Assembly: GCA_048882325.1 (NCBI GenBank)
Contig: JBHLRS010000004.1
Location: forward strand, 19,762 to 83,761
Reading direction: 5' to 3'
DNA: 64,000 nt
Origin: Candidatus Thorarchaeota archaeon
Lineage (GTDB): Archaea > Asgardarchaeota > Thorarchaeia > Thorarchaeales > Thorarchaeaceae
Shown here: positions 6,309-12,512 of the stretch, piece after piece
How the letters are laid out: each line of letters begins with the position of its first letter
How positions within the stretch are numbered: position 1 is the stretch's first letter
The notes under the pieces: model-generated
Seen by the model: the letters and a program-made list of their open reading frames with translations, nothing else
Database searches by the model: none
Told to the model about the DNA's origin: nothing
Made by a program: the position numbers and the translations under genes

Positions 6309-6333
6309 TAGATGTAATAAAGAAGAGAATGGT

Positions 6334-6843
6334 TCAGTCCTCTTCCATGACATCATCATCTTCCTCAGGCATTTCTTCCTCCGTGACATCCTCAGTGACA
6401 GCTTCTACCTCTTCGAGTAGCTCTTCTTCTCTTTCTTCTTCATCGAGCTCTTCATCTTCAACTTCTACTTCTTCTATTTCTTCTTCCGCCTCTTCACCTT
6501 CTTCATCAACCTCATCCTCCTCAAACTCTTCTTCAACAACTGAACCGGGTTTCAGCCGGAGGATGAAGACATATCCAAGTAGGAAACTTACAGCTCCAAG
6601 TAGAAGTGTCAGCCAGACTGCACCATCGAGTCCAAACCAATGAACCGGGTCAAGGGCAAGTCGATCCCTTCGTATTCCTAAAGCAATAGTTTGGAACCAC
6701 TGCGGAATAGTGAACGCAAGTGGAATGCAAATAATTACAAGCAAAATTATTGACAGAATAATCTCAGCAGTATAGTTCAGGATTTTCCTTAGTGTGCTGT
6801 CAACAGCTTTCTTTGCCACAGACAATTTCACTCGCCTTGCCAT
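6334..6843 (-). CDS. Two-TM membrane protein with very acidic C-terminal tail
   Basis: Basic N-terminus, two hydrophobic segments, ~65 aa Glu/Asp-rich tail; upstream GGAG. Confidence 0.7.
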   Translation of the reverse strand: MARRVKLSVAKKAVDSTLRKILNYTAEIILSIILLVIICIPLAFTIPQWFQTIALGIRRDRLALDPVHWFGLDGAVWLTLLLGAVSFLLGYVFILRLKPGSVVEEEFEEDEVDEEGEEAEEEIEEVEVEDEELDEEEREEELLEEVEAVTEDVTEEEMPEEDDDVMEED

Positions 6844-6939
6844 GGCTCCTTGCGAACTCCATTAAAACCTTCTGGCTGGAGAATAGATGCACAAGAGAAT
6901 CGAAGAAGTCTCTAATGGCAGTTAGGTAGATGATTCTAT

Positions 6940-7063
6940 AGAAGAAGTGAGGAGGGAGGGGGCCCGCAAAAACAAGCGAGTTGTTCGCCAGTCGGGTCGG
7001 ACGTTTTGAGAGAGGGAGGGAGTGACAGTATTCATGATGGTCGCGATCGGACCCCCTGTTCCT
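6940..7063 (-). ncRNA. Putative stem-closed CU-rich small RNA (copy 1)
   Basis: TATA-like TTATATGC (7092-7085), 5' AGGAACAGGGGGUCC pairing with GGGCCCCCU (9 bp incl. G-U, minus strand only), CUCCCUCCC loop, CU/U-rich tail. Confidence 0.5.
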
Positions 7064-7136
7064 AAGAGATAATAGATAATAATAGCATATAAGGATTGTT
7101 GATATATCCGTATCTCGAGAGAGAAAAGGAACACTT

Positions 7137-8729
7137 ATGGCTTTTAATGTTCAACTAGTTGAAATTGGATGTGAGCAACCAGTAACGAGAGTGGATAATT
7201 TGGAGAAGAGTCGAGGACCAGCTTGGGCGACGCTCATAGTCACATCCATATTCATCATTCTAACTTCCCTGTTTATCCTCCTCGCATTCTCAGGATTCGC
7301 ATGGAACATCATTACAGAGCAAGTTTTCTCATTCTGGCTTACAATACTTACTATCGGACTAGCAATATCTGCAATGGCAGTATCAACATACTCGTTTGTT
7401 CTGTACATTCAGATTCGCGATGTAAGACACCTCATGTTGATACTACTTGGTGCAAACATCGTGATTTGGTCATTCTTGTTTCTAGTAACACACCCATCCT
7501 CAGAATTATGGTCAGGAGTCTTCTCTGATAGGGATAGAAATCGGACACTTGCAATGGCGTTGGTTCTCGCTGTTGTGCCAAGTATCCTTCTGGGATCATT
7601 TGTAGGGGAAGTGAAACCCAAACGTTCAATCAAACTCATCCTCATAACTTGGGGAACTCTCATAATGCCTTGCATTAGCCTTTGGTTATTCCTAAGCCAA
7701 GAACCTGTCTTTATCATGGTTATAGGAGATGGAGGCGTCGAAGGACTGACTTTGATTGGGGCAATTTTATCAATGGTGTATTTAATCTCCCAGATATTAG
7801 CCCTGATTCGATTTGCGTACAAGTGGTGGAAGACAAGAAACATAATTGACCTTTCACTATTGCTTGCTTTAGCTGTATGGACCATGGGGACTGGTTTTAT
7901 CATAGTTCTTTGGAACCCATTGCAAATTGCTGAACTACTTTGGGTAGCCTCAATCATATCGGGATTTTTGATAATAGGATCAGTGCAGTTTCTAACAGCA
8001 ATCATCGAACCTCACAGGTTCTTGGAGAACCAGGTTGCCCAGCGAACAAGGGAACTTAATCTTTCAAAACAGGAAAGTGAATTCTACCTGAAGATGTGGA
8101 CTCATAAAATGGGAAATCTATTGCAAGGTTTGGTTGTCTATCTCGATATACTAGAAATGGCATCTCAGAATAGTGAGGAAGATATGCAGACTCGCAGTGC
8201 TGCAAGCGACCTCAGCAGAGAAGCCGCAATGCTAAATCAACAAGTCATCCAACTCACAAGGATAAAGGAGAGCCTTGATCAAGTATTATGGCCAGTCAAT
8301 CTTCCGGAGGCTTTCGAGGACGCTGTCAAATCAGCGACCAAACTTTTGGGAGATCATGCATTCAAATCAGAGTTCACATATGGTGCACCAATTACTGTGG
8401 ACGGCGATAATCTTCTCCCACTTGCATTCCATAGTACAATTGCGTATTTTGTGAAAAACAGGTTGGTTGACCAGCCAGTCATCAAAGTCAGTGTTGGACC
8501 TGAAGAAGCACCAAGAAGCGTCAAAATCGCATGTAAAGGAAAACCGATTCCAGAGAGCCTTAGAACATTCTTGGAAGGTGATGAATTAAGAGGGCAGATA
8601 GCACTTGATATCGATCTCTTTACAATAAAACTTCTAATGAATCGTTATCAGGCAACAGTTGAATGCGGTCGAAACGAAGCAACTGAAGAGAATGTTTGCA
8701 GGTTCATATTTCCCGAGTCAACACGTTGA
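7137..8729 (+). CDS. Multi-TM sensor histidine kinase-like protein with degenerate ATPase domain
   Basis: ~8 TM helices, S-helix LENQVAQRTREL, H-box WTHKMGNLL; N/G boxes poorly conserved. Confidence 0.7.
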   Translation: MAFNVQLVEIGCEQPVTRVDNLEKSRGPAWATLIVTSIFIILTSLFILLAFSGFAWNIITEQVFSFWLTILTIGLAISAMAVSTYSFVLYIQIRDVRHLMLILLGANIVIWSFLFLVTHPSSELWSGVFSDRDRNRTLAMALVLAVVPSILLGSFVGEVKPKRSIKLILITWGTLIMPCISLWLFLSQEPVFIMVIGDGGVEGLTLIGAILSMVYLISQILALIRFAYKWWKTRNIIDLSLLLALAVWTMGTGFIIVLWNPLQIAELLWVASIISGFLIIGSVQFLTAIIEPHRFLENQVAQRTRELNLSKQESEFYLKMWTHKMGNLLQGLVVYLDILEMASQNSEEDMQTRSAASDLSREAAMLNQQVIQLTRIKESLDQVLWPVNLPEAFEDAVKSATKLLGDHAFKSEFTYGAPITVDGDNLLPLAFHSTIAYFVKNRLVDQPVIKVSVGPEEAPRSVKIACKGKPIPESLRTFLEGDELRGQIALDIDLFTIKLLMNRYQATVECGRNEATEENVCRFIFPESTR

Positions 8730-8913
8730 AGGCATAGATATTTCTGAAATTCACGCGCGTTCTGGTATAAACCAAGAAACTGTACGTGAGATTCTTGCAG
8801 CTCGTCTAATCAATAGAATTCTATTCGGGTTTATCGAAGAAGATCTCTTCGTACGAGATACATCAACGAGACCACCTACCTACCCAGGTCGAATGGGCTT
8901 ATATGGTAGATAG
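8659..8913 (+). CDS. Short winged-helix/PCI-like ORF, possibly a gene remnant
   Basis: IDISEIHARSGINQETVREILAARLINRILFGFIEEDLF resembles the end of a PCI/wHTH domain; overlaps the kinase 3' end. Confidence 0.35.
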   Translation: MNAVETKQLKRMFAGSYFPSQHVEGIDISEIHARSGINQETVREILAARLINRILFGFIEEDLFVRDTSTRPPTYPGRMGLYGR

Positions 8914-8996
8914 CAAAAGAGGGGGAGAAGGGAGCCGTAGAGAACATGGAAGGAGGAGAGAAACTGCTTCTGAGAGAGAAAGGCTCCCTGTTCCTC
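8913..8996 (-). ncRNA. Putative stem-closed CU-rich small RNA (copy 2)
   Basis: TATA-like TTAAATAT (9025-9018), 5' GAGGAACAGGGAGCC pairing with GGCUCCCU (8 bp), CUCUCCUCCUUCC loop, CCCCCUCUUUU tail. Confidence 0.5.
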
Positions 8997-9144
8997 ATAA
9001 TTAGTATTGCTTAGAATATATTTAAGCAAATGTCAGATTGCGGAGACTCTTACTACAAATTTCTGCATTTCATGAGTATCATTACCAGATTCTCTATACT
9101 TCTATCAAACAACTTATCTAATTCAGAGATATGTACATTGTCAA

Positions 9145-10530
9145 GTGACATCATTGAACGACGCCACTCAAGATATCTTTGATAAACCAGTGAAAAAGAA
9201 GGGATTCTCCGTTGTTATAAAGAACAGAGACTTCACTAAACTCTGGATTGGACAACTTATATCCAATATAGGCTCTTCAGTAGGGAGTCTTGCCCTCTTG
9301 TTCTATGCGTTTGCACTGACTGGCTCAGAACTGGCAATGGCAGGTCTGGCAATGATGCAAATTTTACCTATGGTTCTTTTCTCTGGATTAATTGGAGTAT
9401 ACATAGACCGATGGGATCGAAAAAAGGTCATGATTGCAGCTGACATCGTTCGCGCGGTTGTCACACTTCTCTACCCCTTTGTTGCATTATTTCCCTCTAT
9501 TGTCAGTCCTCTCATGTGGTTGTATGTCCTAGCATTTGTATACGCAACAAGCAATGCTTTCTTCTTCCCTGCAAGGAGTGCATCTATTCCTAGACTTGTT
9601 GACAGAGAAGAACTAGTGACTGCTAACTCCTTGGCTCAAATGACATTTCAACTCGTGGCTCTAATCTTCACGCCTCTCGGGGGAGCACTGATGGCCATTG
9701 TTGCACCAGACTACCTCGTGGGATTCTTGATAGATGCATCTTCTTTCGTTGCATCCGGTATTGTACTCTCAACTATCAAAACATCGCTTATACCTGAGAT
9801 GGTGCCAGATATTGAAAGAAAGTATATTCGTGAATTAAGTGAGGCAGGAGGAATTGTAAGAAGAAGTGCAATTGTCTCATTTCTCCTTGTAATATTCACC
9901 GCACTAATGTTTCTTGGTGGAATGTTAAATGCCATCATTGTTCCATTCTTCCAAGGGGAACTTGGTTTTGACGAGTTCTTATTCAGTTTGATAATGAGTG
10001 GTAGTGCAGTGTCTGGGGTGATTGCTGCGGCTATTCTTGGACAGAGGTCAACCATAAAGCGACCATTCTATCTAATGATGGGAGCGATGGTCATCGTTGG
10101 AGTTGTGATGAGCCTCCTCTCCTTTGTCCCAGCAGGGGACTTCCTTCCTGCTCTATTACTCATGTCAGTTGTGGGAGCTGTGAATGTAGCTATTGGGGTA
10201 CCAAACGCCGCGATCATGCAAGAAATCATCGAGGATAAGATGAGGGGTAAGGTGTTCTCACTCCAAAGCATGATGATTAACACAGCTCAACTTGGAGGTA
10301 TGGCTGTTGCAGGTGTGTGGGCGGAGTCGGTCAGCTCAAGTAGGCCGCCTATCTTTGTCGCAGGCACTGGAGCTTTGCTAATAGCAATGATAGGACTTGC
10401 ACTAGTTGCGACCAGGGGACTGCACGGTAAACTTTGGCAGGTCAGAGAAGATCGTGAGAGGATACTCACAGAAACCAAAGGTGAAGCTGAATCAACTGAA
10501 GAGGATTTCGACACAATAGAGTATACTTGA
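9145..10530 (+). CDS. MFS transporter (DHA3/macrolide-efflux-like)
   Basis: 12 TM helices, [32 protein letters not shown]. Confidence 0.9.
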
Positions 10531-10565
10531 AAACAGATAATAGACCTACTAGTTTGATAATAACT

Positions 10566-10895
10566 ATGAAAGGACTACAGATTGAGGATATTATTGAAGG
10601 AACTGGGGATTTACCGAAACAGGGACAGACTGTTGTTGTCCACTATACTGGTTGGCTGACTGATGGAAAGAAGTTCGATAGCTCAGTCGACAGAGGTGAG
10701 CCATTCGAGTTTCAGATTGGAATCGGACAAGTCATCCAAGGTTGGGATCAGGGTGTTGCAACTATGAAGGTTGGTGGGAAAAGAAAGTTGACAATCCCAC
10801 CAGAGCTAGCATATGGAGACCGCAATATTGGTGATGGACTAATCCCTCCAAACTCAACTCTAATCTTCGAAGTTGATTTGTTGGATCTGAAATAG
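10566..10895 (+). CDS. FKBP-type peptidyl-prolyl isomerase
   Basis: [43 protein letters not shown]. Confidence 0.95.
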
Positions 10896-10941
10896 GAAGG
10901 TTCTATATTCGTTCAATACAAGCCTCTCAGGAGGAAGAAGT

Positions 10942-11310
10942 TTGAAGACACTATCTTTTGATGCCCAAGATGTGCAAAGAGTCATCAATTATCTTTCTAG
11001 CAATTATGCGGCCGTGACCAGGAAGATTTCAGAGAATGATCAGAGTATAATGGCTATTTTCATCCATGAAGAGTACGTTTTCAGAACAGGGTCATATCAA
11101 ACTCTGACATCTATTGTTGAATCAAAAGGGGATTTTGGACAGGCCACCCTCACCGTCGTCGGTAGCGGAGGTGGTGAAGGAATCTGTAATTTCAATTGGG
11201 GATCTCAGTCTGCTGGAGAGGATACAGTGATTCGAAATGTTCAACAAATAATCCGCCAGGGATATGTGAGGGAAGATTACGATAGGCATTATTACGAAGG
11301 TCAGAGATAG
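10942..11310 (+). CDS. DUF6054-like protein
   Basis: EEYVFR...VGSGGGEG..FNWGSQ pattern; SD AGGAGG upstream. Confidence 0.55.
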   Translation: MKTLSFDAQDVQRVINYLSSNYAAVTRKISENDQSIMAIFIHEEYVFRTGSYQTLTSIVESKGDFGQATLTVVGSGGGEGICNFNWGSQSAGEDTVIRNVQQIIRQGYVREDYDRHYYEGQR

Positions 11311-11404
11311 ACCCTGAGAGTGTGTTTTGATCTATTTTGAGATTTGCTAACGTCCTAAAACTCAGCACAGACTTATACGGATTCATGAGCGGTGACATTC
11401 CAAT

Positions 11405-12289
11405 ATGAGTGAATATAACAAAGATACAAGATATGCAATTCGCGATGAATCGGGAAATTATCTTCCTCCATTTCCAGTAGACCCAATAAGGCTAGCAAAA
11501 GATACTCGCAAAACAGTCTGCAAGTCTCAAGATGGAATGCTTCTGCGTAAGTATACGAGGTTTTACGCTGTGGGTGTCTATGGAGGCATAGCAACTGCCT
11601 ATTCAGTAGGATGCAATTATCGATGCGTCTTCTGTTGGGTTGACTGGAGTAGAGATTGGCCAGAGAAGTATGGAAAGTTTTACTCCCCCACCCAGGTGTA
11701 TCAAGAGCTCAGACAGATAATGAAAGTCCAGGATCTTCGCAAGGCACGTATTAGTGGAGCAGAACCTACATTATGCCCGTCACACTTGCTAGGTGTCCTC
11801 GATCTAGTCCATGAGAACAGGGATAAGTTCAATCTTTTTGTAATCGAGTCAAACGGTGTTGTCATCTCACAGGACCGAGAGTTTGTCAGGAAGATTGTCG
11901 AATATGCATCGTCGGATTCGAACACAGTTGGACATGTGAGGTTGTCTATCAGAGGTGGACTTCCAGAATCCTTCGAGGAGAAGACTGGGTGTCATGGTAA
12001 ATTCGTAGACCTTCCATTCATCGCAGCCAAACGTCTTTGGGACGAGAATGTATTATTTCATGTTGCTGTGGTAGTCGATCCGCGTTTCACATCTGAGGAT
12101 GAAAGACAGGTAATCTATGACAAACTCTCAGACATAGATGTATCAGTTAGACGAAGCGTTGAGGAAGAATTCCTTGATCCCTATCCTCATGTGTTAGTTA
12201 GACTACGAGCAGTCGGACGTAACGATGTAACAGGAAAAGAAGTAACCCGCATGGAAGAACGATTGCTCCGTGAGCGACTAGATTTGTGA
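11405..12289 (+). CDS. Radical SAM protein (archaeal COG5014-like)
   Basis: GCNYRCVFCW (CxxxCxxC), RISGAEP, ESNG. Confidence 0.85.
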   Translation: MSEYNKDTRYAIRDESGNYLPPFPVDPIRLAKDTRKTVCKSQDGMLLRKYTRFYAVGVYGGIATAYSVGCNYRCVFCWVDWSRDWPEKYGKFYSPTQVYQELRQIMKVQDLRKARISGAEPTLCPSHLLGVLDLVHENRDKFNLFVIESNGVVISQDREFVRKIVEYASSDSNTVGHVRLSIRGGLPESFEEKTGCHGKFVDLPFIAAKRLWDENVLFHVAVVVDPRFTSEDERQVIYDKLSDIDVSVRRSVEEEFLDPYPHVLVRLRAVGRNDVTGKEVTRMEERLLRERLDL

Positions 12290-12398
12290 GCTTTAGCTCG
12301 TGTATTTCATTCCCTTTTTGCGAAAATCGCAATGAAATAACGATAAAATTGAGGTTATTACCACAATTATTATATACTTTTGTGGAAAAAACAGAAAG

Positions 12399-12512
12399 TG
12401 AAGTGTTGAGAGGCGCAAACTCCCTCCTGAAATCCTAACATTATCCTCTCCTCCTCAAGCAACCATGCGAACCTCAATTTTTCTGCGCCTCTCTCACCTT
12501 CAAACTACTTCT
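12399..12512 (+). ncRNA. Putative stem-closed CU-rich small RNA (copy 3)
   Basis: TATA TTATATAC (12370-12377), 10-bp stem GAGAGGCGCA (12408-12417)/TGCGCCTCTC (12484-12493), CUCCCUCC and CCUCUCCUCCUC in loop. Confidence 0.5.

What the first reader, a model, noticed from the sequence alone, without database searches (positions are those of the whole stretch)
6940..8996. Two paralogous promoter-driven, stem-closed CU-rich sRNA candidates flanking the sensor-kinase gene
Seen: both intergenic regions have, on the minus strand, a TATA box ~29-30 nt upstream of an identical AGGAACAGGG 5' end. Each then has a closing stem with different but complementary arms (AGGGGGUCC/GGGCCCCCU and AGGGAGCC/GGCUCCCU), a loop with CUCCCUCCC or CUCCUCC, and a CU/U-rich tail. 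The G-U pair in copy 1 fixes the strand. The loops are complementary to the GGAGG/GAGG Shine-Dalgarno sites used throughout this window. Inference: an undescribed anti-SD trans-acting sRNA family, or a sponge for a pyrimidine-binding protein such as Sm/Lsm.
Basis: partly seen in the sequence, partly recalled or inferred. Interest (0 to 1): 0.72.

Follow-up and report, generated by a model that had tools for sequence, protein, structure and literature searches.

The report
Split cluster of Thorarchaeota small RNAs
Each of the two flagged spacers holds a real, separately promoted small non-coding RNA gene from an uncatalogued family kept across a whole family of Asgard (Thorarchaeota) archaea; in this genome inserted protein genes have pulled the usual tight three-gene cluster apart, and the RNAs' role is still untested.

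Summary
The genome is a Candidatus Thorarchaeota MAG. On the minus strand, 7063->6944 (e1, about 120 nt) and 8995->8913 (e2, about 83 nt) each have a TATA box 29-30 nt upstream. Each has an end-to-end closing helix, an open CU-rich loop containing CCUCC, and a CU/U-rich tail.

Both are 80-96% identical across the genus, while flanking genes are 64-77% identical. Covariance models find e2 in most genera of the GTDB family. The closing helices covary (for example GGGUGACCC/GGGUCACCC and GAGCUCGCAGG/CCUGUGAGCUC). They tolerate G-U but not A-C, which fixes the strand. Frameshifting indels exclude coding. Rfam has no match.

In most relatives e2 and e1 lie 130-390 nt apart, and a third member, e3, sits about 200 nt upstream of e2 on the other strand. 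Here e3 is at 12404-12506 (+). This genome's cluster is therefore split by a 1.85-kb insert (the sensor-kinase-like gene) and a 3.4-kb insert (four genes).

Function is only inferred. Masking of purine-rich ribosome-binding sites is most likely and a protein sponge is second. My target tests found no specific or conserved target. This scan has already reported the same cluster in other Thorarchaeota genomes.

The parts
6944..7063 (-). e1 small RNA gene (about 120 nt). The 5' end is near A7063. The 3' end is not defined and lies somewhere in the CU-rich tail.
   Evidence: Model R2 scores it at 126.9 bits. It is 73-94% identical in 21 congeners. Homologues with covarying stems occur in other genera.
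7085..7093 (-). e1 TATA box (CTTATATGC), 29 nt upstream of AGGAAC
   Evidence: cTTATATgc is essentially invariant in the genus alignment. It recurs as acTTATATac/gc before e1 in other genera.
7048..7057 (-). e1 closing helix, 5' arm AGGGGGUCCG
   Evidence: It pairs with 6957-6966. The U-G pair alternates with U-A in relatives (8 against 13 sequences).
6957..6966 (-). e1 closing helix, 3' arm CGGGCCCCCU, preceded by the U-tract GUUUUUG (6967-6973)
7008..7024 (-). e1 open CU-rich core CACUCCCUCCCUCUCUC (contains CCUCC)
   Evidence: Mean P(unpaired) is 0.89. It is conserved in the genus.
6975..6989 (-). e1 small internal hairpin GGCGA-ACAAC-UCGCU. It is variable and has been lost in several congeners.
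   Evidence: Relatives show GACGUACAUCGUC or CGACGAAUUUCGUUUG, or have the whole module deleted.
8913..8995 (-). e2 small RNA gene (about 83 nt)
   Evidence: Model R1 scores it at 93.7 bits. R1 finds it in 53 of 86 family genomes. R3 finds it in 21 of 26 sampled family genomes.
9017..9027 (-). e2 TATA box (GCTTAAATATA), 30 nt upstream of AGGAAC
   Evidence: gcTTAAATAta is invariant in the genus. It is present as TTGCTTAAATA in genus g25 and as TATA-like boxes in other genera.
9030..9061 (-). Conserved block upstream of the e2 promoter (..GTAGTAAG..CCGCAAT..GACATTT). It may be a regulator site. In compact relatives it lies between the divergent e3 and e2 promoters.
   Evidence: Conserved at 80-96% together with e2. 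A similar 'ctaGTAAAtttat.ctcaaacaagattt' is seen in other genera. Its function is not tested.
8982..8989 (-). e2 closing helix, 5' arm AGGGAGCC
   Evidence: Congeners show compensatory AGGGGGCC/GGCCCCCU, and genus g22 shows GACUCGAGGG/CCCUCGAGUC.
8929..8936 (-). e2 closing helix, 3' arm GGCUCCCU, followed by the CU/U-rich tail UCUCCCCCUCUUUUG
8948..8963 (-). e2 open CU core UUUCUCUCCUCCUUCC (contains CCUCC). UCUCUCCUCCUUC is nearly invariant across genera.
   Evidence: P(unpaired) is 0.64.
12404..12506 (+). e3, the third member of the cluster. TATA at 12370-12377; 10-bp closing helix 12408-12417 with 12484-12493; loops CUCCCUCC and CCUCUCCUCCUC; U-tract AUUUUUC before the 3' arm.
   Evidence: R2 cross-hit of 25.3 bits. 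The fold has z = -3.9. Homologues lie about 200 nt upstream of e2 on the other strand in compact relatives, with covarying stems.
7137..8729 (+). Inserted gene between e1 and e2: a 530-aa polytopic membrane protein that is at best sensor-kinase-like
   Evidence: It is absent from the e2-e1 spacer in 9 congeners and all other genera inspected. It has no Pfam hit and only faint NCBIfam MASE3/HK hits.
9145..12289 (+). 3.4-kb stretch with four genes (MFS transporter, FKBP isomerase, DUF6054, radical SAM) that separates e2 from e3 in this genome
   Evidence: Pfam. The e3-e2 distance is about 200 nt in G002, G006, G007, G015, G023, G024 and G056.
6334..6843 (-). Conserved downstream neighbour of e1: a small membrane protein with an acidic tail. 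It has its own conserved TATA-like box, GTTTTAATGG, at 6859-6868.
   Evidence: The gene and the box follow e1 in every genus inspected. It matches no Pfam family.

Best explanation
The two elements are autonomous small non-coding RNA genes, e1 (about 120 nt) and e2 (about 83 nt). They belong to a three-gene sRNA cluster (e3 divergent, then e2, e1 and a small membrane-protein gene) that is ancestral to the Thorarchaeota family holding this genome. Each gene has its own TATA promoter. Each transcript pairs its 5' and 3' ends into a GC-rich helix that holds open a long pyrimidine-rich loop, and ends in a CU/U-rich tail. In this genome inserted protein genes have pulled the cluster apart, yet all three RNAs stay intact, so each works as an independent unit, that is, in trans. 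All of this is shown by sequence comparison. The rest is inferred. The open loops carry CCUCC, the same anti-Shine-Dalgarno core as the 16S rRNA 3' end. They most likely base-pair with purine-rich GGAGG-type ribosome-binding sites, or other GA-rich stretches of mRNAs, to lower their translation or change their stability. The end-to-end helix probably protects the RNA from exonucleases and keeps the loop single-stranded.
For: Conservation: both elements, with their TATA boxes, are 80-96% identical in congeners, while adjacent coding sequence is 64-77% identical. Distribution: R1 finds e2 in 53 of 86 family genomes and 8 of 16 genera. The broader R3 model adds genera g15, g19, g24 and g26. Tandem e2->e1 is seen in every genus inspected. 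Structure: on the model-fitted e2 alignment, 7 of 10 pairs change on both sides and 94% of cells are paired. No shuffle of 500 reaches these values, and all slid controls are lower. There are 17 (e1) and 20 (e2) distinct arm pairs, all complementary. Strand: the core helices contain G-U pairs (U-G alternating with U-A), while A-C appears only in spurious extensions. TATA boxes sit at a fixed distance on this strand. Non-coding: indels of 1, 4 and 17 nt and whole-module deletions occur inside the conserved blocks. Autonomy: the e2-e1 spacer ranges from 128 nt to 3.5 kb with different gene content, and the e3-e2 spacer from about 200 nt to 3.4 kb. For the function: the CU cores are predicted unpaired. 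Congeners' 16S rRNA ends in ...GGAUCACCUCCU. GGAG/GAGG peaks at -15 to -11 before predicted starts in this genome. Known sRNAs of this kind include the cuckoo/CcsR RNAs, with their CCUCCUCCC loops (PMC4615179), and Methanosarcina mazei sRNA41 and sRNA154, which mask ribosome-binding sites (PMC5867862).
Against: There are no expression data, so transcript ends and abundance are unknown. RNAduplex energies of the loops against 2,653 start regions are no better than against mid-gene windows or than a reversed loop (e2: -16.8, -16.4 and -16.1 kcal/mol). Complementary 11-mers are scattered mostly inside genes, and nothing longer is found apart from the genes' own antisense strands. The extended complement at one start-site candidate is not conserved in orthologues. 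The invariant stretch of e2, at least 13-16 nt, is longer than SD pairing needs. Three congeners (G007, G015, G024) have an e2 loop without CCUCC. e1 always stays next to the membrane-protein gene, so a local role for e1 is not excluded.
Confidence: 0.45

Rival explanations
1. The same three sRNA genes act mainly as protein-binding RNAs, as sponges or scaffolds. The open (UC)n/CCUCC loops and the U-tract would bind a pyrimidine-binding protein. Candidates are an Sm-like archaeal protein (U-rich sites) or a KH-domain factor that recognises the CCUCC end of 16S rRNA. The closed-end design would be a stable display platform, similar in shape to Y RNAs.
For: The invariant stretches are longer than an anti-SD seed and are mostly simple (UC)n. 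Each RNA carries several CU motifs. A U-tract directly precedes the 3' arm in e1 and e3 in most species. No specific RNA target was found. Three LSM-domain genes exist in this genome.
Against: No candidate protein is encoded next to the cluster. There is no RRM protein and no Ro60/TROVE protein in this 93%-complete genome. Nothing ties any Sm-like protein to these RNAs. The KH/16S-end idea rests on my own recollection and was not tested.
Confidence: 0.25
2. e1, or e2 and e1 together, is a cis-acting leader of the downstream membrane-protein gene (6334-6843, minus strand), for example a structured 5' UTR that controls its translation.
For: e1 is followed by this gene in every genome inspected. 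CU-rich leaders can sequester an SD.
Against: A conserved TATA-like box (GTTTTAAAGG; 6859-6868 here) lies between e1 and the gene about 25-40 nt before its start, so the gene has its own promoter. e2 and e3 keep the same design although they are separated from that gene by 1.85 kb and 5.3 kb of other genes on the opposite strand. e1 is closed by its own helix and is followed by U-runs in many species.
Confidence: 0.07
3. The elements are not RNA genes. They would be DNA-level or plus-strand features: inverted repeats acting as insertion or recombination sites, terminators or insulators of the plus-strand genes, or short protein-coding genes.
For: Genes have repeatedly been inserted next to the elements. 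On the plus strand the copy-2 region also folds well (z = -4.3). Short ORFs overlap both elements.
Against: G-U pairs in the helices become A-C mismatches on the plus strand. The plus strand has no T-run after the helix, and the copy-1 region does not fold better than shuffles there (z = +0.4). The conserved TATA boxes are placed for minus-strand transcription. The loops, not only the repeat arms, are the most conserved part. Frameshifting indels rule out the ORFs. No integrase or transposase lies in the inserts.
Confidence: 0.03

Closest known systems
Cuckoo / CcsR (RSs0680, alpha-r14) sRNAs of Alphaproteobacteria (PMC4615179)
   Same: Both are clusters of paralogous small RNAs that display an anti-SD-like pyrimidine motif (CCUCCUCCC there; CUCCUCC or CUCCCUCC here) in single-stranded loops. 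In both, stems vary while the loop motif is kept, and copies lie side by side with preserved genomic context.
   Different: They are bacterial and Hfq-bound, and RSs0680a-d are co-transcribed from one stress promoter. They are built from 2-4 adjacent short hairpins, each with the motif in its loop. The RNAs here are archaeal. Each has its own TATA promoter and one end-to-end helix around a 45-80-nt open loop. No Rfam model matches. This is analogy, not homology.
Methanosarcina mazei intergenic sRNAs sRNA41, sRNA154 and sRNA162 (review PMC5867862)
   Same: They are archaeal, intergenic and trans-acting, and their loops carry anti-RBS sequence. sRNA41 and loop 2 of sRNA154 repress translation by masking ribosome-binding sites.
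   Different: They come from a different phylum and have no sequence or structural similarity. They are nitrogen-regulated and have experimentally shown targets. The Thorarchaeota RNAs have no known regulation, target or transcript, and they form a conserved three-gene cluster.
Y RNAs (eukaryotes and some bacteria). The comparison is from my own knowledge and concerns shape only.
   Same: They are about 80-120 nt long. Their 5' and 3' ends pair into a long stem, they have a large pyrimidine-rich internal loop, and they end in a U-rich 3' tail.
   Different: No Y_RNA match appears even at E up to 10. No Ro60/TROVE gene is found in this genome. The short GGUCCGA word shared with human Y RNAs is a recollection and was not tested.

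Membership tests
Thorarchaeota three-sRNA cluster (e3/e2/e1; uncatalogued, defined by this scan) | Own TATA box about 22-30 nt upstream of a G-rich 5' end | tested here: met
Thorarchaeota three-sRNA cluster (e3/e2/e1; uncatalogued, defined by this scan) | End-to-end closing helix that covaries between species | tested here: met
   (7 of 10 pairs change on both sides; 0 of 500 shuffles reach this). The alignment was fitted to the model, which favours the structure.
Thorarchaeota three-sRNA cluster (e3/e2/e1; uncatalogued, defined by this scan) | Open pyrimidine-rich loop with CCUCC-type motifs | tested here: met
   Exception: e2 of G007, G015 and G024 lacks CCUCC.
Thorarchaeota three-sRNA cluster (e3/e2/e1; uncatalogued, defined by this scan) | Conserved order: e3 (divergent), e2, e1, membrane-protein gene | tested here: met
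   Order and orientation are kept here, but with 3.4-kb and 1.85-kb inserts.
Cuckoo / alpha-r14 / CcsR sRNA family | 2-4 adjacent hairpins, each with CCUCCUCCC in its loop (PMC4615179) | tested here: not met
   There is one end-to-end helix and a large open loop. The motifs are CUCCUCC or CUCCCUCC, not CCUCCUCCC.
Cuckoo / alpha-r14 / CcsR sRNA family | Match to any curated Rfam model, including the alphaproteobacterial sRNA models | tested here: not met
   No hit at gathering score. No relevant hit at E up to 10.
Y RNA | Rfam Y_RNA model match and a Ro60/TROVE partner protein | tested here: not met
   No Y_RNA hit at E up to 10. PF05731 is not found in this 93%-complete genome, while the control genomes were positive.
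Archaeal C/D-box or H/ACA guide sRNAs | C/D or H/ACA boxes with a K-turn; Rfam model match | tested here: not met
   Only chance-level snoRNA hits (12.8-20.3 bits against cut-offs of 50-60), and none lies on the elements.
Trans-acting anti-SD (RBS-masking) sRNA, a functional class | Single-stranded anti-SD sequence matching the organism's 16S 3' end, in an organism that uses SD sites | tested here: met
Trans-acting anti-SD (RBS-masking) sRNA, a functional class | Preferential or conserved pairing with start regions of particular mRNAs | tested here: inconclusive
   No energy preference for start regions. Only a few 11-mer complements lie at SD positions. One candidate is not conserved.
Trans-acting anti-SD (RBS-masking) sRNA, a functional class | Discrete small transcript and an effect on target translation | not testable with these tools
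   No transcriptome is available for this uncultured lineage.

The most novel reading that the evidence does not exclude
The three RNAs are mimics of the 16S rRNA 3' tail. By displaying CCUCC-containing pyrimidine strands in a nuclease-proof closed frame, they would act as a global switch. They could soak up SD sequences across the transcriptome, shifting translation between SD-led and SD-less messages. Alternatively they could titrate a factor that reads the 16S 3' end during ribosome maturation or initiation. Either would be an RNA-based layer of translational control specific to an Asgard lineage, with a Y-RNA-like architecture.
Probability: 0.12. Interest if true: 0.8.

Novelty: new variant of a known kind. 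Interest (0 to 1): 0.6.

Why it matters
Almost nothing is known about regulatory RNAs in Asgard archaea, the closest prokaryotic relatives of eukaryotes, and no Thorarchaeota is in culture. My literature searches found no description of such RNAs. Here is a set of three small RNA genes kept across a whole family, better conserved than the proteins around them, with clear promoters and covarying helices. That gives ready-made probes for metatranscriptomes and clean candidates for the first functional sRNA study in this phylum. This genome adds a natural experiment: the cluster has been split by inserted genes and the RNAs survive unchanged. That argues they act in trans rather than as parts of one transcript. 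If the loops do mask ribosome-binding sites, the design (one end-to-end helix holding an open anti-SD strand) is a new solution to a task known from bacterial cuckoo RNAs and Methanosarcina sRNA41.

Tried and rejected
1. Known RNA families. An Rfam gathering scan of the whole window and of six related loci found nothing, and permissive scans of both regions gave only chance hits. ARAGORN found no tRNA.

2. More copies from the 10-mer or by blastn in the genome. The other 13 AGGAACAGGG sites are unrelated, and there are no further blastn copies.

3. A larger family in this genome. A descriptor scan (8-bp or longer helix, CU-rich loop with CCUCC, TATA upstream) recovers only e2 and e3. Reversed-sequence controls give as many or more hits. 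The weak R1 hits on contigs C8 and C44 (E = 0.4) were not inspected.

4. Y-RNA/Ro idea. There is no Y_RNA hit and no TROVE gene.

5. RRM (PTB-like) partner. No RRM_1 gene was found.

6. Small ORFs (40 aa at 8876-8998, 70 aa at 6922-7134). Frameshifting indels lie inside the conserved blocks, so these were rejected.

7. Plus-strand function. Rejected on the G-U/A-C asymmetry, TATA orientation and absence of a T-run. My symmetric G-U/A-C count was noisy because it extended helices spuriously, so only the core helices are informative.

8. Target prediction. RNAduplex showed no preference for start regions. The 11-mer complement search found no long target. The TIR of a 745-aa membrane protein (contig C29) has 11 nt of complement, but this is not conserved in 20 orthologues.

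9. Homologues outside the family. R3 gives many weak hits in other Asgard families. Those inspected lack the TATA box and the closing helix, with one possible exception, L064.

10. Viral copies. None was found with the invariant e2 motif.

11. A remnant in the window of the 310-aa membrane-protein gene that other congeners carry between e2 and e1. None was found.

12. The cognate-versus-permuted arm energy test gave 0 of 5000. It is biased, because the arms were defined by their pairing, and I treat it as illustration only.
Full report
**What is in the sequence**

Read on the minus strand, the two spacers are built alike.

- Copy 1 (e1) has CTTATATGC at 7093-7085, with its first T 29 nt before AGGAACAGGG (7063-7054). 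Its arms are AGGGGGUCCG (7057-7048) and CGGGCCCCCU (6966-6957), with one U-G pair. It has an outer AGGA/UCCU extension, an 81-nt interior with CACUCCCUCCCUCUCUC and a small hairpin, a GUUUUUG tract just before the 3' arm, and a CU-rich tail.
- Copy 2 (e2) has GCTTAAATATA at 9027-9017, with its first T 30 nt before AGGAACAGGG (8995-8986). Its arms are AGGGAGCC (8989-8982) and GGCUCCCU (8936-8929). It has a 45-nt loop with UUUCUCUCCUCCUUCC and a tail ending in CUCUUUUG.

The minimum-energy folds give exactly these closing helices. The CU cores are predicted unpaired. Taken alone, this evidence is thin. The folding z-scores are -1.9 and -2.4. The 10-mer occurs 15 times in the genome, 13 of them in unrelated sequence. 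The two copies share little beyond it.

**Comparison settles that the elements are real**

The genome is a Candidatus Thorarchaeota MAG (contig titles of the nearest relatives). A DNA search of 40 relatives found both spacers in essentially all 24 congeneric species sampled. They are 80-96% identical, while the flanking coding sequence aligns at 64-77%.

The alignments show an invariant TATA box at a fixed distance, invariant loop blocks, and changes in the arms that keep pairing. Indels of 1, 4 and 17 nt, and loss of the whole internal hairpin of e1, lie inside the conserved region. The overlapping short ORFs therefore cannot be genes.

**Distribution across the family**

A covariance model of e2 (R1) finds it in 53 of 86 genomes of the GTDB family, in 8 of 16 genera. 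A model rebuilt from 42 sequences (R3) adds four more genera, whose hits have clean TATA boxes and helices. Outside the family only weak, low-complexity hits appear. Those I inspected lack the design, with one possible exception. Rfam has no match at any useful threshold.

**Structure and strand**

On the model-fitted alignment of 42 e2 sequences, 94% of cells are standard pairs and 7 of 10 pairs change on both sides. None of 500 shuffles reaches these values, and all slid controls are lower.

Read directly from the sequences, e2 uses AGGGAGCC/GGCUCCCU, AGGGGGCC/GGCCCCCU, AGGGGGUCC/GGRCCCCCU, GGGGCCG/CGGCCCC, CGGGGGCCA/UGGCCCCCG and GACUCGAGGG/CCCUCGAGUC. e1 uses AGGGGGUCCG/CGGRCCCCCU, ACAGGGAGUCCGA/UCGGACUCCCUGU, GGGUGACCC/GGGUCACCC, GGGGCUCAC/GUGGGCCCC and GAGCUCGCAGG/CCUGUGAGCUC.

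Several core helices hold G-U pairs. In e1 the same position is U-G in 8 sequences and U-A in 13. On the other strand these would be A-C mismatches, and no A-C is seen in a core helix (with the caveat that this count was noisy).

**The two RNAs belong to a three-gene cluster that is split here**

In every other genus inspected, and in nine congeners, e1 lies only 128-392 nt downstream of e2 on the same strand. It is followed by a small membrane-protein gene with an acidic tail (6334-6843 here). That gene has its own conserved GTTTTAAAGG box.

The e1 model also hit window 12404-12506 on the plus strand. That site has the same design: TATA at 12370-12377, a perfect 10-bp helix, loops CUCCCUCC and CCUCUCCUCCUC, AUUUUUC before the 3' arm, and a fold z of -3.9. 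Its homologues, with covarying stems, lie about 200 nt upstream of e2 on the opposite strand in G002, G006, G007, G015, G023, G024 and G056.

The ancestral layout is therefore e3 (divergent), e2, e1 and the membrane-protein gene within about 750 nt. In this genome the order and orientation are kept, but two inserts separate the members:

- 3.4 kb with four genes (MFS transporter, FKBP isomerase, DUF6054, radical SAM) separates e3 from e2.
- 1.85 kb separates e2 from e1.

**The e2-e1 spacer is variable**

Within the genus this spacer holds nothing, the kinase-like gene on the opposite strand, a roughly 310-aa membrane protein on the same strand, or both. One species keeps only a 40-residue remnant of the kinase-like gene.

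The 'sensor kinase' itself has no Pfam hit. It has only faint NCBIfam matches to a MASE3 membrane module and a histidine-kinase dimerisation region.

The exact AGGAAC start shared by e1 and e2 is found only in this genome and two close relatives (G018, G019). Elsewhere e1 starts GGAC and e2 starts AGGGCC. The identical 10-mer is therefore a recent parallel change or gene conversion, not the family signature.

**How the RNAs probably work**

What is shown: there are three autonomous, promoter-bearing, non-coding, structured RNA genes, and their most conserved part is a single-stranded pyrimidine tract. They remain intact when moved apart. That argues against one polycistronic precursor or a purely cis role, at least for e2 and e3.

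What is inferred: the loops contain CCUCC. The 16S rRNA of congeners ends in GGAUCACCUCCU. GGAG/GAGG peaks sharply at -15 to -11 before predicted starts in this genome. The loops can therefore compete with the ribosome for Shine-Dalgarno sites. The cuckoo/CcsR RNAs carry a comparable anti-SD-like loop motif, although their function is still unresolved (PMC4615179). M. mazei sRNA41 and sRNA154 mask ribosome-binding sites in this way (PMC5867862).

My tests do not lift this above inference:

- Duplex energies against 2,653 start regions equal those against mid-gene windows or a reversed loop.
- Complementary 11-mers are mostly inside genes.
- The few at SD positions precede membrane or secreted proteins. 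The one followed up is not conserved in orthologues.
- The invariant tract (UCUCUCCUCCUUC in e2) is longer than an SD seed.
- Three congeners lack CCUCC in e2.

These points keep a protein-sponge reading alive. Three Sm-like genes are present, while RRM and Ro60 genes are not. A U-tract precedes the 3' arm in e1 and e3.

I put the odds at about 0.45 for RBS or GA-tract pairing, 0.25 for a protein partner, 0.07 for a cis leader role of e1, and 0.03 for 'not an RNA gene'. The rest is unknown.

**Novelty and standing**

No paper found in three searches describes sRNAs of this kind in Asgard archaea.

This scan has already reported the same three-gene cluster in several other Thorarchaeota genomes. 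One of those windows shares sequence words with e2. Those notes are AI notes. I re-derived conservation, covariation, distribution and synteny independently here. The new points from this window are:

- the split of the cluster by two inserts;
- the variable content of the e2-e1 spacer;
- the lineage-specific AGGAAC start;
- the negative target tests.

The kind of element (an sRNA displaying an anti-SD-like strand) is known. The family, its host lineage and its end-to-end-helix design are not catalogued.

Noticed in passing
It has only faint NCBIfam hits: a MASE3-type membrane module (E = 9e-4) and an HK dimerisation region (E = 0.007), both far below their cut-offs. No ATPase domain is recognisable.
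   Followed up: partly
e2-e1 spacer: window 7064-8912; L011, L013, L014, L029, L030, L002, L023-L026: Within the genus this spacer is a hot spot for gene gain and loss, ranging from 128 nt to 3.5 kb. It holds no gene, the kinase-like gene (opposite strand), a roughly 310-aa membrane protein (same strand as the sRNAs), or both. G020 keeps a 40-residue remnant of the kinase-like gene. No integrase or transposase was seen.
   Followed up: partly
window 7054-7063 and 8986-8995; L011, L012: The identical AGGAACAGGG start of e1 and e2 exists only in this genome and in G018 and G019 (e2 of G019 reads AGGAAA). Other congeners have GGAC (e1) and AGGGCC (e2). Both paralogues changed in parallel, which suggests gene conversion or co-evolution with a shared partner.
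   Followed up: no
window 6967-6973 (-), 12477-12483 (+): A run of 4-7 U lies directly 5' of the 3' arm of the closing helix in e1 and e3 in most species. In archaea such a run can terminate transcription. A short open isoform and a long closed isoform are therefore conceivable, and the run is also a candidate Sm-like protein site.
   Followed up: no
L026, L027, L028 (G007, G015, G024): In these three congeners the e2 loop has lost the CCUCC core (..GUUUCUCUCCAUG..) and e1 has lost its internal hairpin and about 40 nt. The promoters, closing helices and remaining CU tracts are kept.
   Followed up: no
L064 (G116, another Asgard family): A weak R3 hit (26 bits) shows a similar design: a 10+5-bp end-to-end helix, CU-rich loop (CCCUCCC, CCCUCUCCCCCC), and a U6 run before the 3' arm. 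It may be an analogous sRNA outside Thorarchaeaceae. No clear TATA box was seen.
   Followed up: no
window 9030-9061 (-): A block upstream of the e2 TATA box (GTAGTAAG..CCGCAAT..GACATTT) is as conserved as the RNA itself and recurs in other genera as ctaGTAAAtttat.ctcaaacaagattt. It may be a regulator binding site between the ancestrally divergent e3 and e2 promoters.
   Followed up: no
window 6334-6843 (-) and 6329-6643 (+): The conserved neighbour of e1 is a family-less small membrane protein with a long Glu/Asp tail. Its true start is probably the TTG about 27 nt downstream of the listed ATG, judged by alignment with other genera. The Ser-rich 104-aa ORF on the plus strand is just the antisense shadow of the acidic tail.
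   Followed up: partly
window 8659-8913 (+): An 84-aa ORF overlaps the 3' end of the kinase-like gene and ends beside the e2 tail. It matches no family, and it is unclear whether it is a gene. An unterminated e2 transcript would run antisense to it.
   Followed up: no
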